The position numbers were made by a program, and so were the translations under genes. From Syntrophomonadaceae bacterium (GTDB lineage Bacteria; Bacillota; Dethiobacteria; DTU022): a stretch of 62,037 nucleotides of DNA. The stretch is from assembly GCA_003554615.1 (NCBI GenBank), contig PWGX01000006.1, forward strand, positions 1 to 62,037, written 5' to 3'. The notes beneath the pieces are model-generated. The model saw only the letters and a program-made list of their open reading frames with translations, made no database searches and was not told where the DNA came from. Below, in pieces: positions 3,386-37,836 of this stretch (position 1 is its first letter; each line of letters opens with the position of its first letter).

Positions 3386-4177
3386 ATGAAAAAACCAACC
3401 TGGTCTAAATGTGCAATAAAAAACAGGGAAGGACAGAATTTGTCAGCCATACTTTGCCGCGGCAGCGAAGCAGGATCCCATTGCTTGGAGACCGAAGGTA
3501 ACCCGGTAATCATAGTCTGTCACGGTTTTACCGGTTCAAAAGAAGGCAGTGGGAGAGCCGTGGCCATGGCCGAAAAACTGGCCCTTTCCGGATTCAGGAC
3601 CCTGTTGTTTGACTTTGCCGGCTGTGGGGAAAGCGAAGGTCGATGGGAAAACATTTCCCTGTCCGGGCAGATTGCCGATCTCGGCGCGGTTGTCAGCTGG
3701 TGCCGCCGGAAGGGATTTGACAAAATAATATTAAACGGTAGAAGTTTTGGCGGAACCACGGTTTTATGTTATGCCGCCAGCGACAAAGAAGTTGATGCCG
3801 TATGCACCTGGGCCGCGGTAGCCAGGCTGCACAACCTGTTCAATAGAAGGGCTGCCGCCAACGAAGCGCTAGAAGGCAGCCCGGAGGAATTGTTAACCCT
3901 GGAAGGCGAAGAAGGTACGGTCACTTTAAAACGAAATTTTTTTTACGATCTAAACAAGCACGACCCCGTCGAAGCAGCAGCCAAGCTGGCGCCGCGCAAC
4001 CTTCTATTAATTCACGGTTCAAATGATCAATCAGTGCCCGTTGAAGATGCTGAACTCCTTTATAAGAGAGCCGGGGAGCCCAAAAAGCTGGTTATTATTG
4101 ACGGGGCCGACCACCGGTTTTCAGAACACCTTGAAGAGGTTTGGGAAACTTGTTTTGACTGGCTGCGCAGCCTTTAG
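3386..4177 (+). CDS. Alpha/beta fold hydrolase
   Basis: HGFTG, GRSFGG nucleophile elbow, HGSNDQSVP and GADHRF (Ser-Asp-His); start placed at the ATG after the DGC stop. Confidence 0.88.
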   Translation: MKKPTWSKCAIKNREGQNLSAILCRGSEAGSHCLETEGNPVIIVCHGFTGSKEGSGRAVAMAEKLALSGFRTLLFDFAGCGESEGRWENISLSGQIADLGAVVSWCRRKGFDKIILNGRSFGGTTVLCYAASDKEVDAVCTWAAVARLHNLFNRRAAANEALEGSPEELLTLEGEEGTVTLKRNFFYDLNKHDPVEAAAKLAPRNLLLIHGSNDQSVPVEDAELLYKRAGEPKKLVIIDGADHRFSEHLEEVWETCFDWLRSL

Positions 4178-5662: not shown

Positions 5663-8292
5663 ACCGCACCAGCCCGATGATGGAACAATACAAAGTCGTC
5701 AAAGAGCAGCATCCGGACAAACTGCTAATGTTCCAGGTGGGCGATTTTTATGAGCTGTTTTTTGAAGACGCCGAGGTGGCAGCCAGAGAGATGGAAATTG
5801 CCCTTACTTCCAGGGATGCAGGCAGTGAAGATCCGATTCCCCTGGCCGGCGTGCCCATCCATTCCGCCGAAACCTACCTGAACCGGCTGCTTGGCAAAGG
5901 CTATAAAGTAGTTCTGTGCGAACAGGTTGAAGATGCAGGCCAGGCCAAGGGGCTTGTGAAGCGGGAGATAACCCGCATCCTCACACCCGGCACCATCACG
6001 GACCCGGAGATGCTTGAAGAAAGCCGCAATAACTACCTGGTCACCGTGATAGACCGCGGCGGAGACTATTACGGCCTGGCCGCGGTGGACATCTCCACCG
6101 GTGATTTCCAGGTCACTGAGCAAAAAGGAGAAGGGGCCTGGGATAATATTGCCGACGAGCTGTACCGGCTGCAACCTTCCGAACTGCTCTGCGGGTCCCA
6201 GGAAACTGAACAGCTCTGCCGCAGGCTGTTTGCTCTAAAAAACAGCAGCCTCATTGAACAGCTTTCACATACTCCAGGCCTTGAAGAAGCCGAAAAACTG
6301 ATCCGGGAGCAATGGGAGGATCATACCTGGCAGGATCTGGATCTTAACCAGTATCCGCTTGCCGCATCAGCCGGGGCGGCAGCACTGGCTTACCTGCAGA
6401 TACTGCAGCAGCTTCCCGTCGGCGAAAAGCATTTCCGGCGCCTTAATCTATACTTTAACAACCGCAATATGATTATCGATAACGTTACCAGCCGCAACCT
6501 GGAGCTAACCCAATCTTTGCGCGAAGGCGGCAGACAGGGCAGCCTGCTGGGCCTGCTCGACCGCTGTATGACAGCCATGGGCAGACGCCTCTTAAGACGA
6601 TGGATCGAACTGCCCCTGATTCAAAGGAAAATGATTGAAAAAAGACTTGATGCTGTCGAAGAATTGATCCAAAAACCGCTGCAGAGAAAAGACCTGCGCA
6701 AATTACTGCAGGATGTATTTGACCTGGAGCGATTCTGCAGCCGGCTTTCCTACCAGCGTATAAATGCCAGGGACCTGGTTTCACTCAAGGAAACCCTGGC
6801 CCAGATTGAAGCTCTGAAAAAGAAATGCACTGACCTGGAAGCCCCGCTGCTAAAAGAAATCAACACCGGTATCCCGGACTTCAGCGAACCGGCGGCCTTA
6901 ATCGACAGGGCCCTGGTAGAAGACCCGCCTCTCTCCCTGAAAGAAGGGGGCCTGTTTAAAAGCGGATATAACGAAGAAGTGGACCGTTTGAAATCATTTT
7001 CTGAAGAAAGTAACACCCTGCTCCTTGACTTTGAAAAGAAAGAACGGGAGCACACAGGCATAAAGTCCCTGCGAATAGGATACAACCGCAATTTTGGCTA
7101 TTATATCGAAGTTACCAAAACGAACCTCAACCTGGTTCCGCCCGAATACCACCGCAAGCAAACCCTGGTCAATGCAGAACGGTTTACGACCGAAGAGCTG
7201 CAGCGGATGGAAGAACAAATAACCGGGGCCCGTGACAAGCTGGCCCACCTTGAATACACCCTGTTCGAAGAATTGCGGGAAAAAATTGGCACCTATACCG
7301 ATCAACTGCTTTCCGCTTCTCACAATTTGGCCCGGCTGGACTGCCTCCAGGGCCTGGCCGAAGCATCCGAAAGGCACAGTTACTGCAGGCCTGTATTTTC
7401 AAACGGTAAAAAGATGAATGTCCGGCAGGCCCGCCACCCGGTGGTGGAGCAAACGGTTTTTGAGCGATTTGTGCCCAATGATATCCACATGGACAGAAAA
7501 CATTACCTGCTGGTAATTACAGGCCCGAACATGGCCGGCAAAAGCACCTATATCCGCAGTGCCGGCCTGCTGTCGATCATGGCCCAGATGGGCAGTTTTG
7601 TGCCGGCAGATGAGGCCGAACTGCCGGTTTTAGACCGCATTTTTGCCCGGGTCGGGGCCAGTGACGACCTCAGCCGCGGCCAGAGCACTTTCATGGTCGA
7701 AATGCAGGAAACGGCAGCTATCCTGAAAGAAGCGACCCCGGACAGCCTGATCATCCTTGATGAAATCGGCAGGGGAACCAGCACCTACGATGGAATGAGC
7801 ATAGCGCGCAGTGTCCTGGAGTACATCAGCCGGGAAATCAAGGCCAAAACTCTCTTCTCAACCCATTACCATGAACTGACCAACCTGGAAGGAGAACTGC
7901 CCGGGGTTAAAAACTATACCATTGCCGTCAAAGAAAAAGGTAAGGAGGTAATTTTTCTGCGCCGCCTCTTGCCCGGAAAAGCGGATAAAAGCTACGGTAT
8001 TAATGTGGCCCGCCTGGCCGGAGTGCCGCTGGAGGTGCTGATCAGGGCGGAAAAAATACTTTACGAACTGGAAAATGCGGCTTCCACGGCCGGGGACCGG
8101 CAGCTGAGCCTGCTGCCGATGGTTTCAGAGCCGGTGTCCGCTTACAGCCGGGAACTGGATGTAGTGGAGCAGGTTAAAGAACTTGATTTAAACCGGACTA
8201 CACCCCTGGAAGCGCTGCAAAAGCTTTTTGAGATGCAAAAACAGCTCCTGGATTACGAACAGGAGGATTCGGAAAAGGAGCCTGATCAATAA
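5659..8292 (+). CDS. mutS: DNA mismatch repair protein MutS
   Basis: SPMMEQY...FQVGDFYELF, GPNMAGKST, LDEIGRGTST, FSTHYHEL. Confidence 0.97.
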   Translation: MNRTSPMMEQYKVVKEQHPDKLLMFQVGDFYELFFEDAEVAAREMEIALTSRDAGSEDPIPLAGVPIHSAETYLNRLLGKGYKVVLCEQVEDAGQAKGLVKREITRILTPGTITDPEMLEESRNNYLVTVIDRGGDYYGLAAVDISTGDFQVTEQKGEGAWDNIADELYRLQPSELLCGSQETEQLCRRLFALKNSSLIEQLSHTPGLEEAEKLIREQWEDHTWQDLDLNQYPLAASAGAAALAYLQILQQLPVGEKHFRRLNLYFNNRNMIIDNVTSRNLELTQSLREGGRQGSLLGLLDRCMTAMGRRLLRRWIELPLIQRKMIEKRLDAVEELIQKPLQRKDLRKLLQDVFDLERFCSRLSYQRINARDLVSLKETLAQIEALKKKCTDLEAPLLKEINTGIPDFSEPAALIDRALVEDPPLSLKEGGLFKSGYNEEVDRLKSFSEESNTLLLDFEKKEREHTGIKSLRIGYNRNFGYYIEVTKTNLNLVPPEYHRKQTLVNAERFTTEELQRMEEQITGARDKLAHLEYTLFEELREKIGTYTDQLLSASHNLARLDCLQGLAEASERHSYCRPVFSNGKKMNVRQARHPVVEQTVFERFVPNDIHMDRKHYLLVITGPNMAGKSTYIRSAGLLSIMAQMGSFVPADEAELPVLDRIFARVGASDDLSRGQSTFMVEMQETAAILKEATPDSLIILDEIGRGTSTYDGMSIARSVLEYISREIKAKTLFSTHYHELTNLEGELPGVKNYTIAVKEKGKEVIFLRRLLPGKADKSYGINVARLAGVPLEVLIRAEKILYELENAASTAGDRQLSLLPMVSEPVSAYSRELDVVEQVKELDLNRTTPLEALQKLFEMQKQLLDYEQEDSEKEPDQ

Positions 8293-13375: not shown

Positions 13376-13408
13376 AGAATCACCCTTTCAAGAAGAAGTA
13401 TTTTTTAG

Positions 13409-13448
13409 ATTATAGCATCATTTGTCTGATAAAACAAACGATTGTTTG
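13409..13448 (-). promoter_or_regulatory. lexA sigma-A promoter with overlapping SOS-box-like palindrome
   Basis: Minus strand TTGTTT-N17-TATAAT with extended TG; palindrome CAAAC-GATT-GTTTG at 13435-13448 over the -35. Confidence 0.55.
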
Positions 13449-13476
13449 TCTGTTTTTCAGTTTAAACCCCGTATTT

Positions 13477-15069: not shown

Positions 15070-15320
15070 ATAAAAAAACCTTCGCCACAGAGACGAAAGT
15101 TATTTTCGCGGTACCACTCTTCTTGGCGGCACAACATCTACCGCCCACTCTTTAAGATAACGGAAGTCTCCGGCCAATCCTACTTTTAGCTGTCATGCCA
15201 ATTTCGGTTGGCGGCTCACGGATGAGTTCACAGGATCCGTCATACCGCCTTGCACCAGCCGGCGGCTCTCTGCAGATGGCTTAACCTGTTACTGCTTCCG
15301 ATCACAGCCTTTTGCCTGAT
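15070..15320 (-). promoter_or_regulatory. T-box riboswitch (Leu specifier CUC) upstream of leuA
   Basis: Minus strand: AGUA and AG boxes, GGUGCAA, specifier GAA-CUC (15224-15226), T-box AGAGUGGUACCGCG (15107-15121), terminator hairpin with U-tract. Confidence 0.92.
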
Positions 15321-15360: not shown

Positions 15361-15629
15361 GTAAATTTTTGCTAGTTTTTTTCTTGAGCATCAATAACAC
15401 GTTTTTTTTTACTGTTATGATTAAGTAGTGTTATGGTCGCTGCCTGGGTCCGGGGAAAAGGGGGAAGGAGCATAGATGAAGGACTGATTGGGTTTTATTT
15501 AGATAAAGTACCGTTTTTGCTTGACAACCAGGCCATAATAGGTCAGAATATACATATAATTCCGTAATTAATCAGATCGTCTGTAATACCATATAATATT
15601 TTATGGGTACTGAATAAGCGGTGAATACT

Positions 15630-16733
15630 ATGAACTCACCCCGGGAAAAAACAGCAGTCTTGAGCAGCAGTGAGCAGGCGGCCTTGTTGAGGATTCCCAA
15701 TCCAAAAGCGCCAACCGGCCTGCGTAATCTCTGTATGATGATGCTTATGCTCAGGGCGGGACTGCGCGCCGGGGAAATCCTGGATCTCAAAGCTGAAGAT
15801 ATCAACTGGAATGAAGGCAAAATCCATGTCGCAGAAAGCGGGGCCGCCAAAGAACGCACCTTATGGCTTGATGATGAGCTCCTTGCCCTGCTAGAAAATT
15901 GGCACCGGATCCAACCGCCCGGAAGCAGCTATTATTTTAGCACCCTTAAAGGGGGACGCCTTAAAGATCGCTACCTGCGGGAAATGGTCAAGCGGACGGC
16001 CCGTAAGGCTGGCATAAACAAAGATGTCCATCCACACCTTCTGCGCAGCACCTTTGCCGTCAACATCATTAAAGAAATGAATGATATCCGCCTTGCTCAA
16101 AACGCCCTGGGCCACAGGGACGCAACGACAACCCAGGCCTATCTCAAGCACCTGTTCGAAGAGCACAGCATGACTTATTACGACATCCTTGGCTACAGGA
16201 GAAGCGGTATTCCGGCCGCTGCCCCAGCCGGAGCTGCTAAACAAGATTTTGGAGAGGAAAACCATGATCAAAATCAGGGGGATCGCTCCGCCGAAATAAG
16301 CCCCCGGGAAAGTGGAAGAGAGGAGGAAAGAAGGGATGAGGCCGAACTGTCAAACTATTTAGGAAATGAGAATGACAGGAATAATATAGAAGAAGAGAGG
16401 CAGAATCCGGTTAATAAACCTGAAAAGGCGGTTAATAATGGACCCGGTTCAAGCAGATCCACCGGCCCAGATGCTTTAAAAGGCAGGGAGGGAACTGCAG
16501 GTAAAGGCGAAGGAGCAGGCGGCAGGGGGCCGGAAAAAGGAGATCCGGACAGCGGCCCTTTCCCGGAACAGCCTCATATGCCGGGTAGAGGCGCTGAAGA
16601 CGCCGACCGCGGGAAACCGATCCCGGCTTTGAAGTGCAGTCGCTGCACTTATATTCTCAGGCACCATGAAGACTGCCCGCAGTGCGGCGCTACGTTTGCT
16701 TCTATTCTTGAACACTGGAGAAGAAATGTGTAA
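15630..16733 (+). CDS. Tyrosine recombinase catalytic domain, low-complexity linker and C-terminal zinc ribbon; no N-terminal core-binding domain
   Basis: GLRAGE (Arg), HPHLLR (HxxR), LGH and TQAY (His, Tyr); C-terminal CSRC...CPQC; alternative GTG start at 15621. Confidence 0.88.
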   Translation: MNSPREKTAVLSSSEQAALLRIPNPKAPTGLRNLCMMMLMLRAGLRAGEILDLKAEDINWNEGKIHVAESGAAKERTLWLDDELLALLENWHRIQPPGSSYYFSTLKGGRLKDRYLREMVKRTARKAGINKDVHPHLLRSTFAVNIIKEMNDIRLAQNALGHRDATTTQAYLKHLFEEHSMTYYDILGYRRSGIPAAAPAGAAKQDFGEENHDQNQGDRSAEISPRESGREEERRDEAELSNYLGNENDRNNIEEERQNPVNKPEKAVNNGPGSSRSTGPDALKGREGTAGKGEGAGGRGPEKGDPDSGPFPEQPHMPGRGAEDADRGKPIPALKCSRCTYILRHHEDCPQCGATFASILEHWRRNV

Positions 16734-16803
16734 GGGCCAGGTCTCTGGTCAGGGAAGAGGGGGGGCAGGTGCTTCTTTTTGGTCCTTATGATAATATGAA
16801 TTA

Positions 16804-16831
16804 ACTTCCGATAATGTATCTTATGTAAACA
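16804..16831 (+). other. Chromosome dimer resolution site dif (XerCD type)
   Basis: ACTTCCGATAA-TGTATC-TTATGTAAACA closely matches B. subtilis dif ACTTCCTAGAA-TATATA-TTATGTAAACT; lies where gene orientation switches. Confidence 0.9.
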
Positions 16832-16842
16832 AAGAGGGGGGA

Positions 16843-16880
16843 GCCTTTACATTATAACGCCGCCTTTACCTTATAACACC
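16843..16880 (+). repeat. Tandem 19-bp direct repeat next to dif
   Basis: GCCTTTACATTATAACGCC followed directly by GCCTTTACCTTATAACACC (2 mismatches). Confidence 0.85.
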
Positions 16881-16943: not shown

Positions 16944-16979
16944 ATTTCGCTTACTTGCTTGATTTCGCTTACTTGATTG
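16944..16979 (+). repeat. Tandem 18-bp direct repeat overlapping a sigma-A promoter
   Basis: ATTTCGCTTACTTGCTTG then ATTTCGCTTACTTGATTG; TTGATT-N16-TATAAT with extended TG (16959-16986). Confidence 0.85.
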
Positions 16980-35514: not shown

Positions 35515-37836
35515 CTAATCATTTTCCTGTTTGCTTTCTTCGCAAATTTTAGCCGCCTGCTCCGGGGTGACCAGGATTTCCCTGGGTTTGCTTCCTTCAA
35601 ACTGCCCCACAACGCCCTTTCTTTCCAAGTCGTCAATCAGCCGCGCCGCCCTGGTATACCCAATCCTGAACCTTCTTTGGAGCAGCGATATTGAAGCCTG
35701 GCCAGTCCTTACCACCAGGTCAACGGCTTCGGCAAAAAGGGCATCCGTTTCTTCTTCTTCAACTTCTTCCGGAGTTTCAAGGAAATTGCTCCCGTTTTCT
35801 TGCTCCACCAGTCCCTGTTCTTTTATGAAATCGGTAATATTTTTGACTTCCTCTTCGCTGATGAAGGCGCCCTGGACCCGGAAAGGCTTAACCGCCCCGA
35901 CGGGGTAAAAAAGCATATCGCCGCGGCCGAGCAATTTTTCCGCCCCGGCCATGTCCAGAATCGTCCGGGAATCGAACTGGGAAGAAACTGTAAAGGCAAC
36001 CCGGGAAGTGATGTTGGCTTTTATAATACCGGTTAGGACATCTACGGAAGGCCTTTGAGTGGCAACAATAAGATGTATTCCGGCTGCCCGTGACATCTGG
36101 GCCAGCCTGGCAATGGCATCTTCCACTTCACCGGGTGATACATGCATCAGGTCGGCCAGTTCGTCGATAATGATCACGATAAAGGGAAGGTTTTCCAGCT
36201 CATCATCCCTGGACGCCATCTCGTTGTATGTGCTGATATCGCGAACCCCAAGGCGGGCAAAAAGATCATAACGGCGTCCCATTTCCCGGACCATGTTTCT
36301 TAAAGCCAGCGAAGCTTTGCGCGGGTCGGTCAGGACCGGCATTAAAAGGTGAGGGATACCGTTATAAGCACTGAGTTCGACCACTTTCGGGTCGATCATC
36401 ATAAACCGCAGCTGCTCCGGGTGCGCTTTATATAAAATACCGGTGACAAGGGTGTTAAGGCAGACGCTTTTACCGGATCCTGTCGCTCCGGCAATTAAAA
36501 GGTGGGGCATTTTAGCCAGGTCGGCGATTACGGGCCCCCCGGTTATATCCTTACCCAGGCCGATGGTCAACGGGGAAGCACTCTTCTTAAAGTTATTTTC
36601 TTCAATCACTTCCCTTAAATGAACGAGTGAGATAATACTGTTCGGGACTTCGATGCCAAGGGCCGCTTTGCCGGGAATAGGAGCTTCGATCCTGACCAGC
36701 GGGGCGGCCAGGTTTAGGGCCAGGTCGTCAGAAAGGCCAATAATTTTACTTACTTTAACCCCGGCTTCCGGCTGGACTTCGAAGCGGGTAACCGTCGGTC
36801 CGGCCTGAACATGGGTTACCCTGGCCTGCACTCCGAAATTTCGGAGGGTATTTTCCAGTTTCCTGGCTCTATCCCTGCTGTTCTTTAACTGGTGATCGCC
36901 GTTAGAGCGGGGCAGAGATAGCAGTTCCAGCGGGGGATAAATATAGTCGGAAAAAGATTTACCTTTTTTACCCACCACGGCCGGCAGATCACCCGCGCCA
37001 TTTTCCCTTTGCGGCTCGTTTATGTTAAGCTGCCTTTCTTGCTGGTAACTCCCGGTTTCCGCTGCCGCCGTTTGTCCGGCAGGATCATTCCAAACCTGGA
37101 CCGGCGGCGCAGGCGGTTGATCGGGTGCCGGCTGTTCCGGCAGGGCCTCGGCCGAGTTTATTTCAGCGGCGGCCTTCCTTTTCTCGGCGGCATCTCTAAT
37201 TTTCTCCTTAGAACCGGCCACTCCTTTTCCGGCCACTCCGGACAGCCCCCGAAACAGCTTTTTCAAGAACTCGTAAACTCGCTCCAACATCCGCAGGAAA
37301 ATATTGAGAAGCCGGTTAACCGAAATATCAACTACCATGAGAACAGAAATCAGGGCCAGGGCAAAAAGCAAGATCCGGGTCCCGGTAATTCCGATCGAAA
37401 AATACAGGGCCACCGCAAAGGCTGCTCCAATTGCCCCTCCTCCTTCGCCCTGCAGCCCCGGCAAAAAACTGCCCATGATTAAGTCGTTTGCCGGCAGGTA
37501 AGCCAACCTGCCGATAATATACTGCAGGTGGATCCAGATCATGGCCAGGACCGAAAGGATTAACAATCCGGTCATTCTAGACTTGACATTAAAATTTTCA
37601 CCGGGAATTATTAAACGCAAACCCAGAATCCCGATAAATAAAGGCACTACTACTGCCGCTTCGCCGGCCATAGTTCTTAATACGGTGCTGACAACCAGGC
37701 CCACTCCTCCGGTTTGGTCGGTTTGGACCAGGCCGACATAACAAAATACGGCCAGGGCCACCAGTAAAATGCCCTTAACCTGACCCTGCATCTCCTGACT
37801 GGAGCGCTTTTTACGTTTTTTGGCCAAAAAAAACAA
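35515..37836 (-). CDS. ftsK: DNA translocase FtsK/SpoIIIE
   Basis: N-terminal TM segments, GPTVTRFE, PHLLIAGATGSGKS, ATQRPSVD, gamma domain IGYTRAARLID. Confidence 0.96.
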   Translation of the reverse strand: MFFLAKKRKKRSSQEMQGQVKGILLVALAVFCYVGLVQTDQTGGVGLVVSTVLRTMAGEAAVVVPLFIGILGLRLIIPGENFNVKSRMTGLLILSVLAMIWIHLQYIIGRLAYLPANDLIMGSFLPGLQGEGGGAIGAAFAVALYFSIGITGTRILLFALALISVLMVVDISVNRLLNIFLRMLERVYEFLKKLFRGLSGVAGKGVAGSKEKIRDAAEKRKAAAEINSAEALPEQPAPDQPPAPPVQVWNDPAGQTAAAETGSYQQERQLNINEPQRENGAGDLPAVVGKKGKSFSDYIYPPLELLSLPRSNGDHQLKNSRDRARKLENTLRNFGVQARVTHVQAGPTVTRFEVQPEAGVKVSKIIGLSDDLALNLAAPLVRIEAPIPGKAALGIEVPNSIISLVHLREVIEENNFKKSASPLTIGLGKDITGGPVIADLAKMPHLLIAGATGSGKSVCLNTLVTGILYKAHPEQLRFMMIDPKVVELSAYNGIPHLLMPVLTDPRKASLALRNMVREMGRRYDLFARLGVRDISTYNEMASRDDELENLPFIVIIIDELADLMHVSPGEVEDAIARLAQMSRAAGIHLIVATQRPSVDVLTGIIKANITSRVAFTVSSQFDSRTILDMAGAEKLLGRGDMLFYPVGAVKPFRVQGAFISEEEVKNITDFIKEQGLVEQENGSNFLETPEEVEEEETDALFAEAVDLVVRTGQASISLLQRRFRIGYTRAARLIDDLERKGVVGQFEGSKPREILVTPEQAAKICEESKQEND

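What the first reader, a model, noticed from the sequence alone, without database searches (positions are those of the whole stretch)
15630..16831. Atypical tyrosine recombinase (catalytic domain only, plus zinc ribbon) encoded 70 bp from chromosomal dif
Seen: the protein begins directly at the catalytic fold, lacking the ~100-aa core-binding domain of XerC/XerD. It retains R, HxxR, H and Y, then runs through ~140 aa of G/E/R/P-rich low-complexity sequence to a terminal CxxC-x9-CxxC. By eye the beta2-beta3 loop reads VAESGAAKER where GKGxKER is usual, so the catalytic Lys may be lost. Established: dedicated dif-adjacent recombinases exist (XerS, XerH) but act on non-canonical dif sites and keep both domains; FimB/FimE-type enzymes are catalytic-domain-only; elements that exploit Xer integrate at dif. 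Inference: a possibly undescribed terminus-associated factor, for example an Xer modulator, an FtsK-independent activator or a dif-binding protein using the zinc ribbon as a tethered second module.
Basis: partly seen in the sequence, partly recalled or inferred. Interest (0 to 1): 0.78.

Follow-up and report, generated by a model that had tools for sequence, protein, structure and literature searches.

The report
Half-size Xer-like recombinase beside dif
A cut-down relative of the enzymes that unlink replicated chromosomes, carrying a zinc-binding tail and its own small target-like DNA palindrome, sits 70 bases from the chromosome's normal unlinking site (dif) in one lineage of soda-lake bacteria that also keeps the standard machinery; it probably came from a mobile element and now serves as an extra recombinase or regulator at the replication terminus, though nothing yet shows that it acts on dif.

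Summary
ORF 15630-16733 (+) encodes 367 aa: a tyrosine-recombinase catalytic domain with no core-binding domain, a ~130-aa disordered linker and a C4 zinc ribbon. A 28-bp dif starts 70 nt after the stop. It is the only dif in the genome and lies where GC skew and gene strand switch.

The gene is real and under purifying selection (dN/dS 0.06-0.15 in the catalytic domain). In 36 of 38 related loci dif lies 41-169 bp downstream. These are not independent cases: the whole region is syntenic and a LeuA tree puts all carriers in one clade, so this is one insertion followed by vertical descent. XerC, XerD and FtsK-gamma occur throughout the order with or without the gene, so it is an addition to the standard machinery.

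Two new points:
- It belongs to a large unnamed family of ~190-aa catalytic-domain-only recombinases. Many are in prophages or other mobile elements, and these keep the canonical GKGxK loop.
- Family members carry a dif-like palindrome just upstream of their own gene, here at 15586-15610, as xerS does with difSL.

Best reading (0.42): a domesticated gene-plus-site module at the terminus that regulates itself and may also bind the XerC arm of dif. Action at dif is not shown.

The parts
15508..15513 (+). GTACCG half-site-like hexamer, 7 nt upstream of the -35 box
   Evidence: An RTWCCG hexamer sits at this fixed position in 14 of 30 family loci.
15521..15549 (+). Sigma-70-type promoter TTGACA-17 nt-CAGAAT for the recombinase gene
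   Evidence: Consensus scan gives 10 of 12 matches. TTGACA and CAGAAT are conserved in nearly all family loci.
15543..15564 (+). Conserved operator-like 22-mer TCAGAATATACATATAATTCCG overlapping the -10 box and the likely transcription start; it ends in an ATTCCG half-site
   Evidence: Present in about 30 family loci. It is unique in the own genome and absent from relatives that lack the gene.
15586..15610 (+). Palindrome ATACCA-N13-GGGTAC in the 5' leader, 20 nt before the ATG; the probable cognate binding or core site of the recombinase
   Evidence: 27 of 35 family loci score at least 10/12 against RTWCCG-N13-CGGWAY, versus 5% of shuffles. The same palindrome lies beside distant members L045, L111, L113, L114, L115, L117 and L120. 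Other viral members have other dif-like palindromes at -55 to -70.
15630..16733 (+). CDS of 367 aa: catalytic-domain-only tyrosine recombinase, then linker, then zinc ribbon
   Evidence: dN/dS is 0.06-0.15 in the catalytic domain.
15660..16160 (+). Catalytic domain (aa 11-177) with R46, E49, H136, R139, H162 and Y171; its beta2-beta3 loop AESGAAKE lacks the canonical GKGxK
   Evidence: PF00589 E 3e-34. pLDDT above 90. Foldseek top hits are XerA, XerH, IntI and XerD. Loop alignment.
16197..16217 (+). Conserved RRSGIPA motif (aa 190-196) directly after the catalytic domain
   Evidence: G193 and P195 are invariant and R191 nearly so. The model shows a beta-bridge at residue 195 with pLDDT ~73. 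Short relatives end at the equivalent FFRxG motif.
16230..16604 (+). Disordered low-complexity linker (aa ~201-325), variable in length and sequence
   Evidence: pLDDT below 50. Unalignable between homologues. dN/dS 0.3-0.6.
16605..16730 (+). C-terminal zinc ribbon plus helix (aa 326-367): IPALKCSRCTYILRHHEDCPQCGATFASILEHWRRNV
   Evidence: Invariant I, P, K, four C, P, G and W. pLDDT ~94. The profile finds it only in this family among 1.84e9 representative proteins.
16804..16831 (+). Chromosomal dif: XerC-side arm ACTTCCGATAA, centre TGTATC, XerD-side arm TTATGTAAACA
   Evidence: Unique in the genome. One copy per genome in 52 of 61 relatives with 0 control hits. Lies at the skew and strand switch. 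The same site occurs in relatives without the gene.

Best explanation
The gene encodes a working member of an undescribed family of compact Xer-like tyrosine recombinases that consist of the catalytic domain alone. Like xerS/difSL or cre/loxP, family members come as a gene-plus-site module: a dif-like palindrome (consensus RTACCGTWWA, about 5-6 bp, inverted copy) lies a few tens of bases upstream of the start codon. Many members are carried by prophages and other mobile elements.

In a lineage labelled Dethiobacteria or Syntrophomonadaceae in public records, the enzyme gained a C-terminal zinc-ribbon partner. This partner is a separate or frame-shifted ORF in some relatives and is fused here through a disordered linker. 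The same lineage lost the canonical GKGxK loop.

In the ancestor of one clade, the whole module (promoter, operator, palindrome, gene) was inserted once between the leuA leader and the chromosomal dif, on the XerC-arm side. It has since been inherited vertically under purifying selection, alongside intact XerC, XerD and FtsK.

Inferred mechanism: a dimer binds the palindrome in its own 5' leader and the flanking half-sites around the promoter. This gives autoregulation and possibly slow strand exchange at that site. Because the TxCCG core of the palindrome arms also occurs in the XerC arm of dif (CTTCCGATAA), the protein may also occupy that arm 70 nt beyond its own stop codon. It would thus act as an auxiliary recombination or regulatory module at the replication terminus. 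The zinc-ribbon module would substitute for the missing core-binding domain or for the C-terminal trans-contact helix.

Shown: architecture, conservation, selection, position, single origin, co-occurrence with XerCD and FtsK, and the recurrent palindrome. Inferred: DNA binding, autoregulation, any catalysis, and any action on dif.
For: - The family and its architecture are conserved, and selection is purifying.
- dif lies 41-169 bp downstream in 36 of 38 loci.
- dif is single-copy and lies at the terminus.
- The region is syntenic and the insertion has a single origin. Relatives without the gene have leuA directly next to dif.
- XerD and XerC are in the own genome, two Xer genes are in all 61 relatives, and FtsK-gamma is in 58 of 61.
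- The protein is only 29% identical to the genome's own XerC and XerD.
- The broad family has more than 2400 hits, of ~190 aa, with a GKGxKDR loop. Members occur in mobile-element and phage contexts.
- The zinc ribbon is split from the recombinase in some relatives and fused in others.
- The palindrome lies upstream of the gene in 27 of 35 clade loci versus 5% of shuffles, and beside distant members.
- The promoter and a genome-unique operator are conserved. Half-sites recur at fixed positions.
- The literature describes gene-site adjacency for xerS/difSL and xerH/difH (PMC5357621).
Against: - There is no direct evidence of binding or catalysis.
- The general-acid lysine is not conserved: 11 K, 7 R and 6 other residues out of 24. 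In Cre, replacing this lysine with arginine leaves only very weak activity (PMC2943603).
- The window's own palindrome is a degenerate copy scoring 10/12, with a one-base asymmetry. About a quarter of clade loci have only weak copies.
- No palindrome was found beside several sister homologues: L099, L100, L102 and L108.
- The resemblance of the arms to the XerC arm is modest (5.5 of 10 positions) and partly built in by the pattern used to find the sites.
- dif has the same sequence in genomes with and without the gene, so it shows no co-evolution with it.
- Adjacency to dif is one historical event within a syntenic block.
Confidence: 0.42

Rival explanations
1. The gene is a relic of a mobile element that targeted dif. 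A minimal recombinase cassette or a larger element integrated beside dif, through its own enzyme or through XerCD, and the rest decayed. The position records history only. The gene persists as an autoregulated, largely selfish or neutral passenger with no role in chromosome biology.
For: - Close relatives of the catalytic domain sit in prophages and mobile-element regions, and PHROG integrase families match the protein.
- In prophage locus L115 the gene is flanked by two palindromes, at -48 and at +70 after the stop. That spacing matches palindrome-gene-dif here.
- There was a single insertion event.
- The insertion lies exactly at the XerC-arm side of dif, where elements that exploit Xer integrate (established knowledge of such elements).
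Against: - Purifying selection is strong on both the catalytic domain and the zinc ribbon across a clade whose LeuA proteins have diverged to ~80% identity.
- Catalytic residues and the four cysteines are invariant, and the gene is single-copy in 14 of 15 genomes of the genus.
- No second dif-like junction was found at the left border and no other mobile-element genes are present.
- The promoter-palindrome-gene order is the unintegrated configuration.
Confidence: 0.25
2. The protein is a non-catalytic or barely catalytic dif-arm binding factor, a pseudo-recombinase. It occupies the XerC half of dif and, through the tethered zinc ribbon, recruits or blocks XerC/XerD, FtsK or SMC. Possible roles are Xer modulation, exclusion of elements that integrate at dif, or organisation of the terminus.
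For: - The canonical GKGxK loop is lost in this clade, although the wider family keeps it.
- The lysine is essential in Cre, Flp and Xer (PMC2943603).
- The TxCCG core is shared by the palindrome arms and the dif XerC arm.
- The gene lies on the XerC side of dif in all loci.
- Earlier agents reached this reading on orthologues; that is not independent evidence.
Against: - R46, E49, R139, H162 and Y171 are invariant, which argues that active-site chemistry is still under selection.
- dif is unchanged between carriers and non-carriers.
- No interaction data exist, and the zinc ribbon occurs in no other protein context that could hint at a partner.
Confidence: 0.18
3. The neighbourhood is coincidental. 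The recombinase acts on a target elsewhere in the genome, for example an inversion or excision switch, and being next to dif has no meaning.
For: - Sister homologues with the same design are not adjacent to dif.
- Distant homologues have no dif nearby.
- All neighbouring genes are equally linked to dif by synteny.
Against: - The only conserved palindrome with family-type arms is in the gene's own leader.
- The operator is unique in the genome.
- No inverted promoter variants are seen in about 30 loci.
- In family f3 genomes G045, G056 and G057 the homologue still lies in the terminus region, 25-35 kb from dif and between dif and ftsK.
Confidence: 0.1

Closest known systems
XerS/difSL (streptococci, lactococci) and XerH/difH (epsilon-proteobacteria): single-recombinase Xer modules
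   Same: It is a Xer-type catalytic domain. The gene is encoded immediately beside a dif-type site as one module (PMC5357621). The site lies just upstream of the gene, and the module sits at the replication terminus.
   Different: Those enzymes keep both domains (356-363 aa), replace XerCD, and act on an atypical dif. Here the core-binding domain is missing, a zinc ribbon is added, the canonical loop lysine is lost, XerC and XerD plus a canonical dif are all present, and the XerS model scores 55 against a cut-off of 267.
XerC/XerD (CodV/RipX) with dif and FtsK
   Same: Same fold and active-site residues R, E, H, R, H and Y. XerA, XerC and XerD are the best-scoring curated models, and structural hits include XerA, XerH and XerD. 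The gene lies beside the canonical 28-bp dif.
   Different: Only 29% identical to the genome's own XerC and XerD. Scores of 101-104 bits fall far below cut-offs of ~330. There is no N-terminal domain, the tail is a zinc ribbon rather than the usual C-terminal end, and the loop is ESGAAxER rather than GKGxKER.
FimB/FimE-type tyrosine DNA invertases
   Same: They are short recombinases that align to this protein along their whole ~200-residue length and are encoded next to their DNA target.
   Different: The model scores 58 against a cut-off of 221. No invertible segment was found, and the promoter has the same orientation in about 30 loci. The zinc ribbon and linker are absent from FimB/E.
Cre/loxP of phage P1, and integrative elements that exploit Xer at dif
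   Same: It is an element-borne recombinase with an adjacent palindromic core site, and the insertion lies exactly at dif. From my own knowledge, not checked here: Cre/loxP placed at the terminus can replace dif/XerCD in E. coli (Leslie and Sherratt 1995).
   Different: Cre has two domains. Elements that exploit Xer encode no recombinase of their own and leave a second dif-like junction, which was not found here.

Membership tests
XerC/XerD (TIGR02224/TIGR02225) | Score at or above the curated equivalog cut-off | tested here: not met
   103.7 against 335.15 and 101 against 329.6 bits. The genome's true XerD scores 391 and its XerC 334.5.
XerC/XerD (TIGR02224/TIGR02225) | N-terminal core-binding domain plus C-terminal catalytic domain | tested here: not met
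   Only PF00589 is found, at aa 11-177. The alignment starts at about XerD residue 109. The start codon and promoter are conserved.
XerC/XerD (TIGR02224/TIGR02225) | Full catalytic set R-K-H-R-H-Y | tested here: inconclusive
   R46, H136, R139, H162 and Y171 are present. The XerD K172 position is S70. K74 aligns with XerD K175 and is not conserved: 11 K, 7 R and 6 other residues out of 24. Placing this lysine in a variable loop is known to be uncertain (PMC2943603).
XerC/XerD (TIGR02224/TIGR02225) | Recombination at the 28-bp dif, activated by FtsK-gamma | not testable with these tools
   dif and FtsK-gamma are present, but no activity data exist.
Single-recombinase Xer modules (XerS/difSL, XerH/difH) | Recombinase gene adjacent to its own site | tested here: met
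   The palindrome ends 20 nt before the ATG and dif begins 70 nt after the stop.
Single-recombinase Xer modules (XerS/difSL, XerH/difH) | Replaces XerC/XerD in the genome | tested here: not met
   XerC and XerD are present in the own genome and in all 61 relatives.
Single-recombinase Xer modules (XerS/difSL, XerH/difH) | Sequence membership (NF003462 XerS) | tested here: not met
   55.3 bits against a cut-off of 267.
FimB/FimE-type invertases (NF007370/NF007371) | Score at or above cut-off, and an adjacent invertible segment bounded by inverted repeats | tested here: not met
   58.7 and 58.1 bits against cut-offs of 221 and 222. The promoter has the same orientation in about 30 loci.
Integrative elements exploiting Xer at dif | Element flanked by dif and a second dif-like junction, with no recombinase of its own | tested here: not met
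   The second-best dif match in each locus has at least 9 mismatches, and the insert encodes a recombinase.
Archaeal XerA (NF040815) | Score at or above the equivalog cut-off | tested here: not met
   130.5 bits against 220. It is the best model and the best structural match, but only over the catalytic domain.
Unnamed compact catalytic-domain-only recombinase family (this report) | Catalytic domain of ~190 aa without a core-binding domain, strong mutual similarity, and a palindrome with TxCC(G) arms upstream of the gene | tested here: met
   48% identical over 182 residues to the f3 homologue, which in turn is 50-64% identical to the ~190-aa members. Palindrome data. The window's clade differs in having a fused zinc ribbon and lacking GKGxK.

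The most novel reading that the evidence does not exclude
The module is a second, self-contained terminus recombination system living beside XerCD/dif. A core-binding-domain-less recombinase with a zinc-ribbon tail would either act on its own palindrome, giving FtsK-independent back-up dimer resolution or decatenation in the way Cre/loxP can replace dif at the terminus. Or it would pair with XerD on dif by occupying the XerC arm, acting as an alternative XerC or as a guard against elements that integrate at dif.
Probability: 0.22. Interest if true: 0.82.

Novelty: new variant of a known kind. Interest (0 to 1): 0.6.

Why it matters
Chromosome dimer resolution is thought to use either XerCD/dif or a single replacement recombinase such as XerS, XerH or XerA. 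A third recombinase that has lost a domain, gained a zinc ribbon, lies a few dozen bases from a canonical dif, and is conserved in genomes that keep XerC, XerD and FtsK would be a new layer of that system. Alternatively it would be a clear case of a mobile-element mini-integrase domesticated at the terminus.

It also defines a large unannotated family of ~190-aa recombinases with their own dif-like sites. That is useful for annotating prophages and for asking how little protein a tyrosine recombinase needs. The carriers are uncultured, so testing would rely on heterologous expression.

Tried and rejected
- LexA/SOS control: the lexA promoter carries ACAAAC-N4-GTTTGT. No such box, and no GAAC-N4-GTTC, lies near the recombinase promoter.
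- Invertible promoter of the FimB/E kind: AGTACC and GGTACT flank the promoter, but all of about 30 loci show the same orientation and the segment is only ~95 bp.
- Excision between the leader palindrome and dif: the central regions differ (AATATT-like against TGTATC), so productive exchange is unlikely.
- Second dif-like junction at the left border: none has fewer than 9 mismatches.
- dif next to distant homologues L045-L086: none found.
- Defence-system models: no PADLOC hit.
- Zinc ribbon in other protein contexts: none; the remaining hits are Cys-rich repeat proteins.
- G-rich box after dif and the TAA flank: also present in genomes without the gene, so they are not part of the module.
- Compensation for a missing Xer or FtsK-gamma: rejected, because both are universal in the order.
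- Exact look-up of the window's LeuA to find empty-site variants: nothing on record.
- RTWCCG palindrome in 30 viral loci as a set: 10 hits against 6 expected, not significant. Only L117 and L120 have it at the expected place. A search for any palindrome at -140 to -1 was significant.

Full report
**1. What is there**

ORF 15621/15630-16733 (+) is the only long frame in the region. ATG 15630 follows a GGTG by 7 nt.

The 367-aa product has one Pfam domain, PF00589, at aa 11-177 (E 3e-34). No curated NCBIfam model reaches its cut-off:
- XerA 130.5 against 220
- XerC 103.7 against 335
- XerD 101 against 330
- FimB/E-type 58 against 221
- XerS 55 against 267

Alignments to solved Xer proteins begin at about XerD residue 109, so the core-binding domain is absent.

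AlphaFold2, run with a 24-sequence alignment, gives:
- a confident catalytic domain (pLDDT above 90)
- a disordered segment at 201-325
- a confident zinc ribbon plus helix at 326-367 (pLDDT ~94)
- a beta-bridge at residue 195 in the conserved RSGIP motif

Foldseek ranks XerA, XerH, IntI4 and XerD highest.

**2. dif is real**

It is unique in the 0.98-Mb, 71%-complete assembly.

The degenerate pattern occurs exactly once in 52 of 61 related genomes and never in the reversed control. Cumulative GC skew peaks at 10-19 kb. Large ORFs are on + up to 12.7 kb and on - from 21.9 kb.

The genome also encodes:
- XerD (391 bits, above cut-off)
- XerC (334.5 against 335.15, downstream of topA as in B. subtilis)
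- FtsK with a gamma domain, in this window at 35515-37836

**3. The family, and what the dif linkage means**

About 97 close homologues share four features: the catalytic domain, an RSGIP motif, a linker that cannot be aligned, and an invariant IPxxKCxxCx(9)CPxCGxxFxxIxxHW tail.

In 36 of 38 genome loci, the best dif match lies 41-169 bp downstream of the gene on the same strand. The two exceptions are cut by contig ends.

These are not 36 independent observations:
- Every locus has the same order: lexA(-), leuA(-), recombinase(+), dif, BPL_N-like gene, capA-like gene, glycosyltransferase.
- A LeuA tree places all carriers in one clade with 100/99 support. Non-carriers of the same family fall outside it.
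- In non-carriers, the leuA leader abuts dif directly.

So the module was inserted once beside dif and then inherited. Selection is purifying: dN/dS is 0.06-0.15 for the catalytic domain, 0.05-0.4 for the zinc ribbon and 0.3-0.6 for the linker.

Two full-length Xer genes and FtsK-gamma are present across the order whether or not the gene is there. dif has the same sequence in both groups. The protein is only 29% identical to the genome's own XerC and XerD.

**4. The catalytic lysine**

PMC2943603 lists XerC/D K172 as the general acid. It also notes that this lysine is hard to align and that its replacement abolishes activity almost completely.

Here the loop is AESGAAKE, two residues longer than the XerD loop GKGNKE. 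In the alignment K172 falls opposite S70, and K74 falls opposite K175. Across 24 homologues the K74 column is K in 11, R in 7, and S/N/M/Q/G in 6. R46, E49, R139, H162 and Y171 are invariant.

The wider family keeps VRQGKGxKDR. Loss of the canonical loop is therefore a derived trait of the chromosomal zinc-ribbon forms. I read this as altered or slowed catalysis, not proven inactivity.

**5. The wider family**

Sister genomes of the order encode homologues with the same design but a different zinc ribbon (KCxCG...CPGCG...RVNF). These lie 25-35 kb from dif, between dif and ftsK, or on other contigs.

A search with one of them finds more than 2400 proteins, mostly of 185-200 aa.
- In relatives labelled Dethiobacteria in public records, the short gene lies downstream of surE and deoC. 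It is followed by a zinc-ribbon ORF that is separate, or open in the +1 frame from an AAATTTTTTCG run that overlaps the recombinase stop.
- More distant members lie beside phage lysis genes, other integrases, a hipBA-type toxin-antitoxin pair or transposases. Fifty loci were recovered from viral contigs.
- No dif lies near these distant homologues.
- The zinc-ribbon profile of the window's clade hits nothing outside that clade in 1.84 billion representative proteins.

**6. Cis elements**

The gene has a conserved promoter, TTGACA-17 nt-CAGAAT. The promoter overlaps a 22-mer, TCAGAATATAnATATAATTCCG, that is unique in the genome and absent from non-carriers.

Between this 22-mer and the start codon lies a palindrome, RTWCCG-N13-CGGWAY. 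27 of 35 loci score at least 10/12, against 5% of shuffled controls. The window's copy is ATACCAtataatattttatGGGTAC at 15586-15610.

The same palindrome lies next to unrelated, distant members:
- L045 at -54
- L111 at -49
- L113 at -200
- L114 at -480
- L115 at -48, and again 70 nt after the stop
- L117 at -89
- L120 at -53

Other viral members carry different but clearly dif-like palindromes at -55 to -70, such as CCACCTATAA-tatgta-TTTTAGGTGG. 10 of 24 have at least 9 of 10 complementary arm positions, against 4% of shuffles. This is the gene-plus-site arrangement described for xerS/difSL and xerH/difH (PMC5357621).

Extra RTWCCG hexamers sit 7 nt upstream of the -35 box (14 loci) and at the operator's end (22 loci). 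The density is 14 per kb against 2.1 per kb elsewhere.

The arm consensus RTACCGTWWA shares its TxCCG core with the XerC arm CTTCCGATAA: 5.5 of 10 positions, against 3.2 of 10 for the XerD arm. Part of that match is imposed by the search pattern.

**7. Reading**

The shown facts fit a mobile-element-type mini-recombinase module that was domesticated at the terminus of one lineage. It probably binds its own leader palindrome, giving autoregulation and perhaps recombination. It may also bind the XerC arm of dif.

I cannot distinguish an auxiliary recombination role from a regulatory or guarding role, or from a selfish relic. Odds are given with each. Earlier agents' notes on orthologues reach similar conclusions and are not independent evidence.

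Noticed in passing
L108:10550-10860 and L111:10560-10976: In short (193-196 aa) relatives, the zinc-ribbon peptide is encoded in the +1 frame. That frame opens exactly at a shared ATGAAATTTTTTCG run, ten codons before the recombinase stop. The cause could be a conserved programmed frameshift or slippage, an old frameshift that split a fused gene, or a homopolymer assembly error. In L111 a separate GTG-started 111-aa ORF was called.
   Followed up: partly
window 35515-37836 (-): ftsK, with its gamma domain at 35566-35754, lies only 19 kb from dif. Wherever ftsK and dif lie on the same contig in relatives of the order, they are 14-63 kb apart.
   Followed up: partly
window 15086-15314 (-): T-box leader (139 bits) in front of leuA. 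Its promoter lies back-to-back with the recombinase promoter.
   Followed up: yes
window 13400-13450 (-): The probable LexA box of this organism, ACAAACAATCGTTTGT, lies upstream of lexA. It is a CAAAC-N4-GTTTG variant of the Gram-positive GAAC-N4-GTTC box.
   Followed up: partly
window 16843-16880 and 16944-16979: Two pairs of tandem direct repeats lie just beyond dif: 19 nt, GCCTTTACATTATAACGCC / GCCTTTACCTTATAACACC, and 18 nt. The first pair contains TTTACAT, the reverse complement of part of the XerD arm. Their meaning is unknown.
   Followed up: no
own genome contig C26:829-3187: Three tyrosine-recombinase genes lie in tandem, an arrangement like recombinase-in-trio elements, on a 3.5-kb contig.
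   Followed up: no
L026 (DATIKA010000106.1, 2363 bp): A contig binned as Candidatus Limnocylindrales carries this clade's gene, operator and dif. It is most likely a mis-binned contig, not a transfer to Chloroflexota.
   Followed up: no
L115:5953-5978 and 6640-6665: In a prophage-borne 189-aa relative, the gene is flanked by two family-type palindromes, 48 nt before the start and 70 nt after the stop. A further AGTACCG half-site follows the stop directly. This looks like a possible minimal excisable cassette.
   Followed up: partly
L088:1975-4011: In one relative without the gene, a 678-aa ORF ends inside dif: its stop is at 4011 and dif starts at 4001.
   Followed up: no
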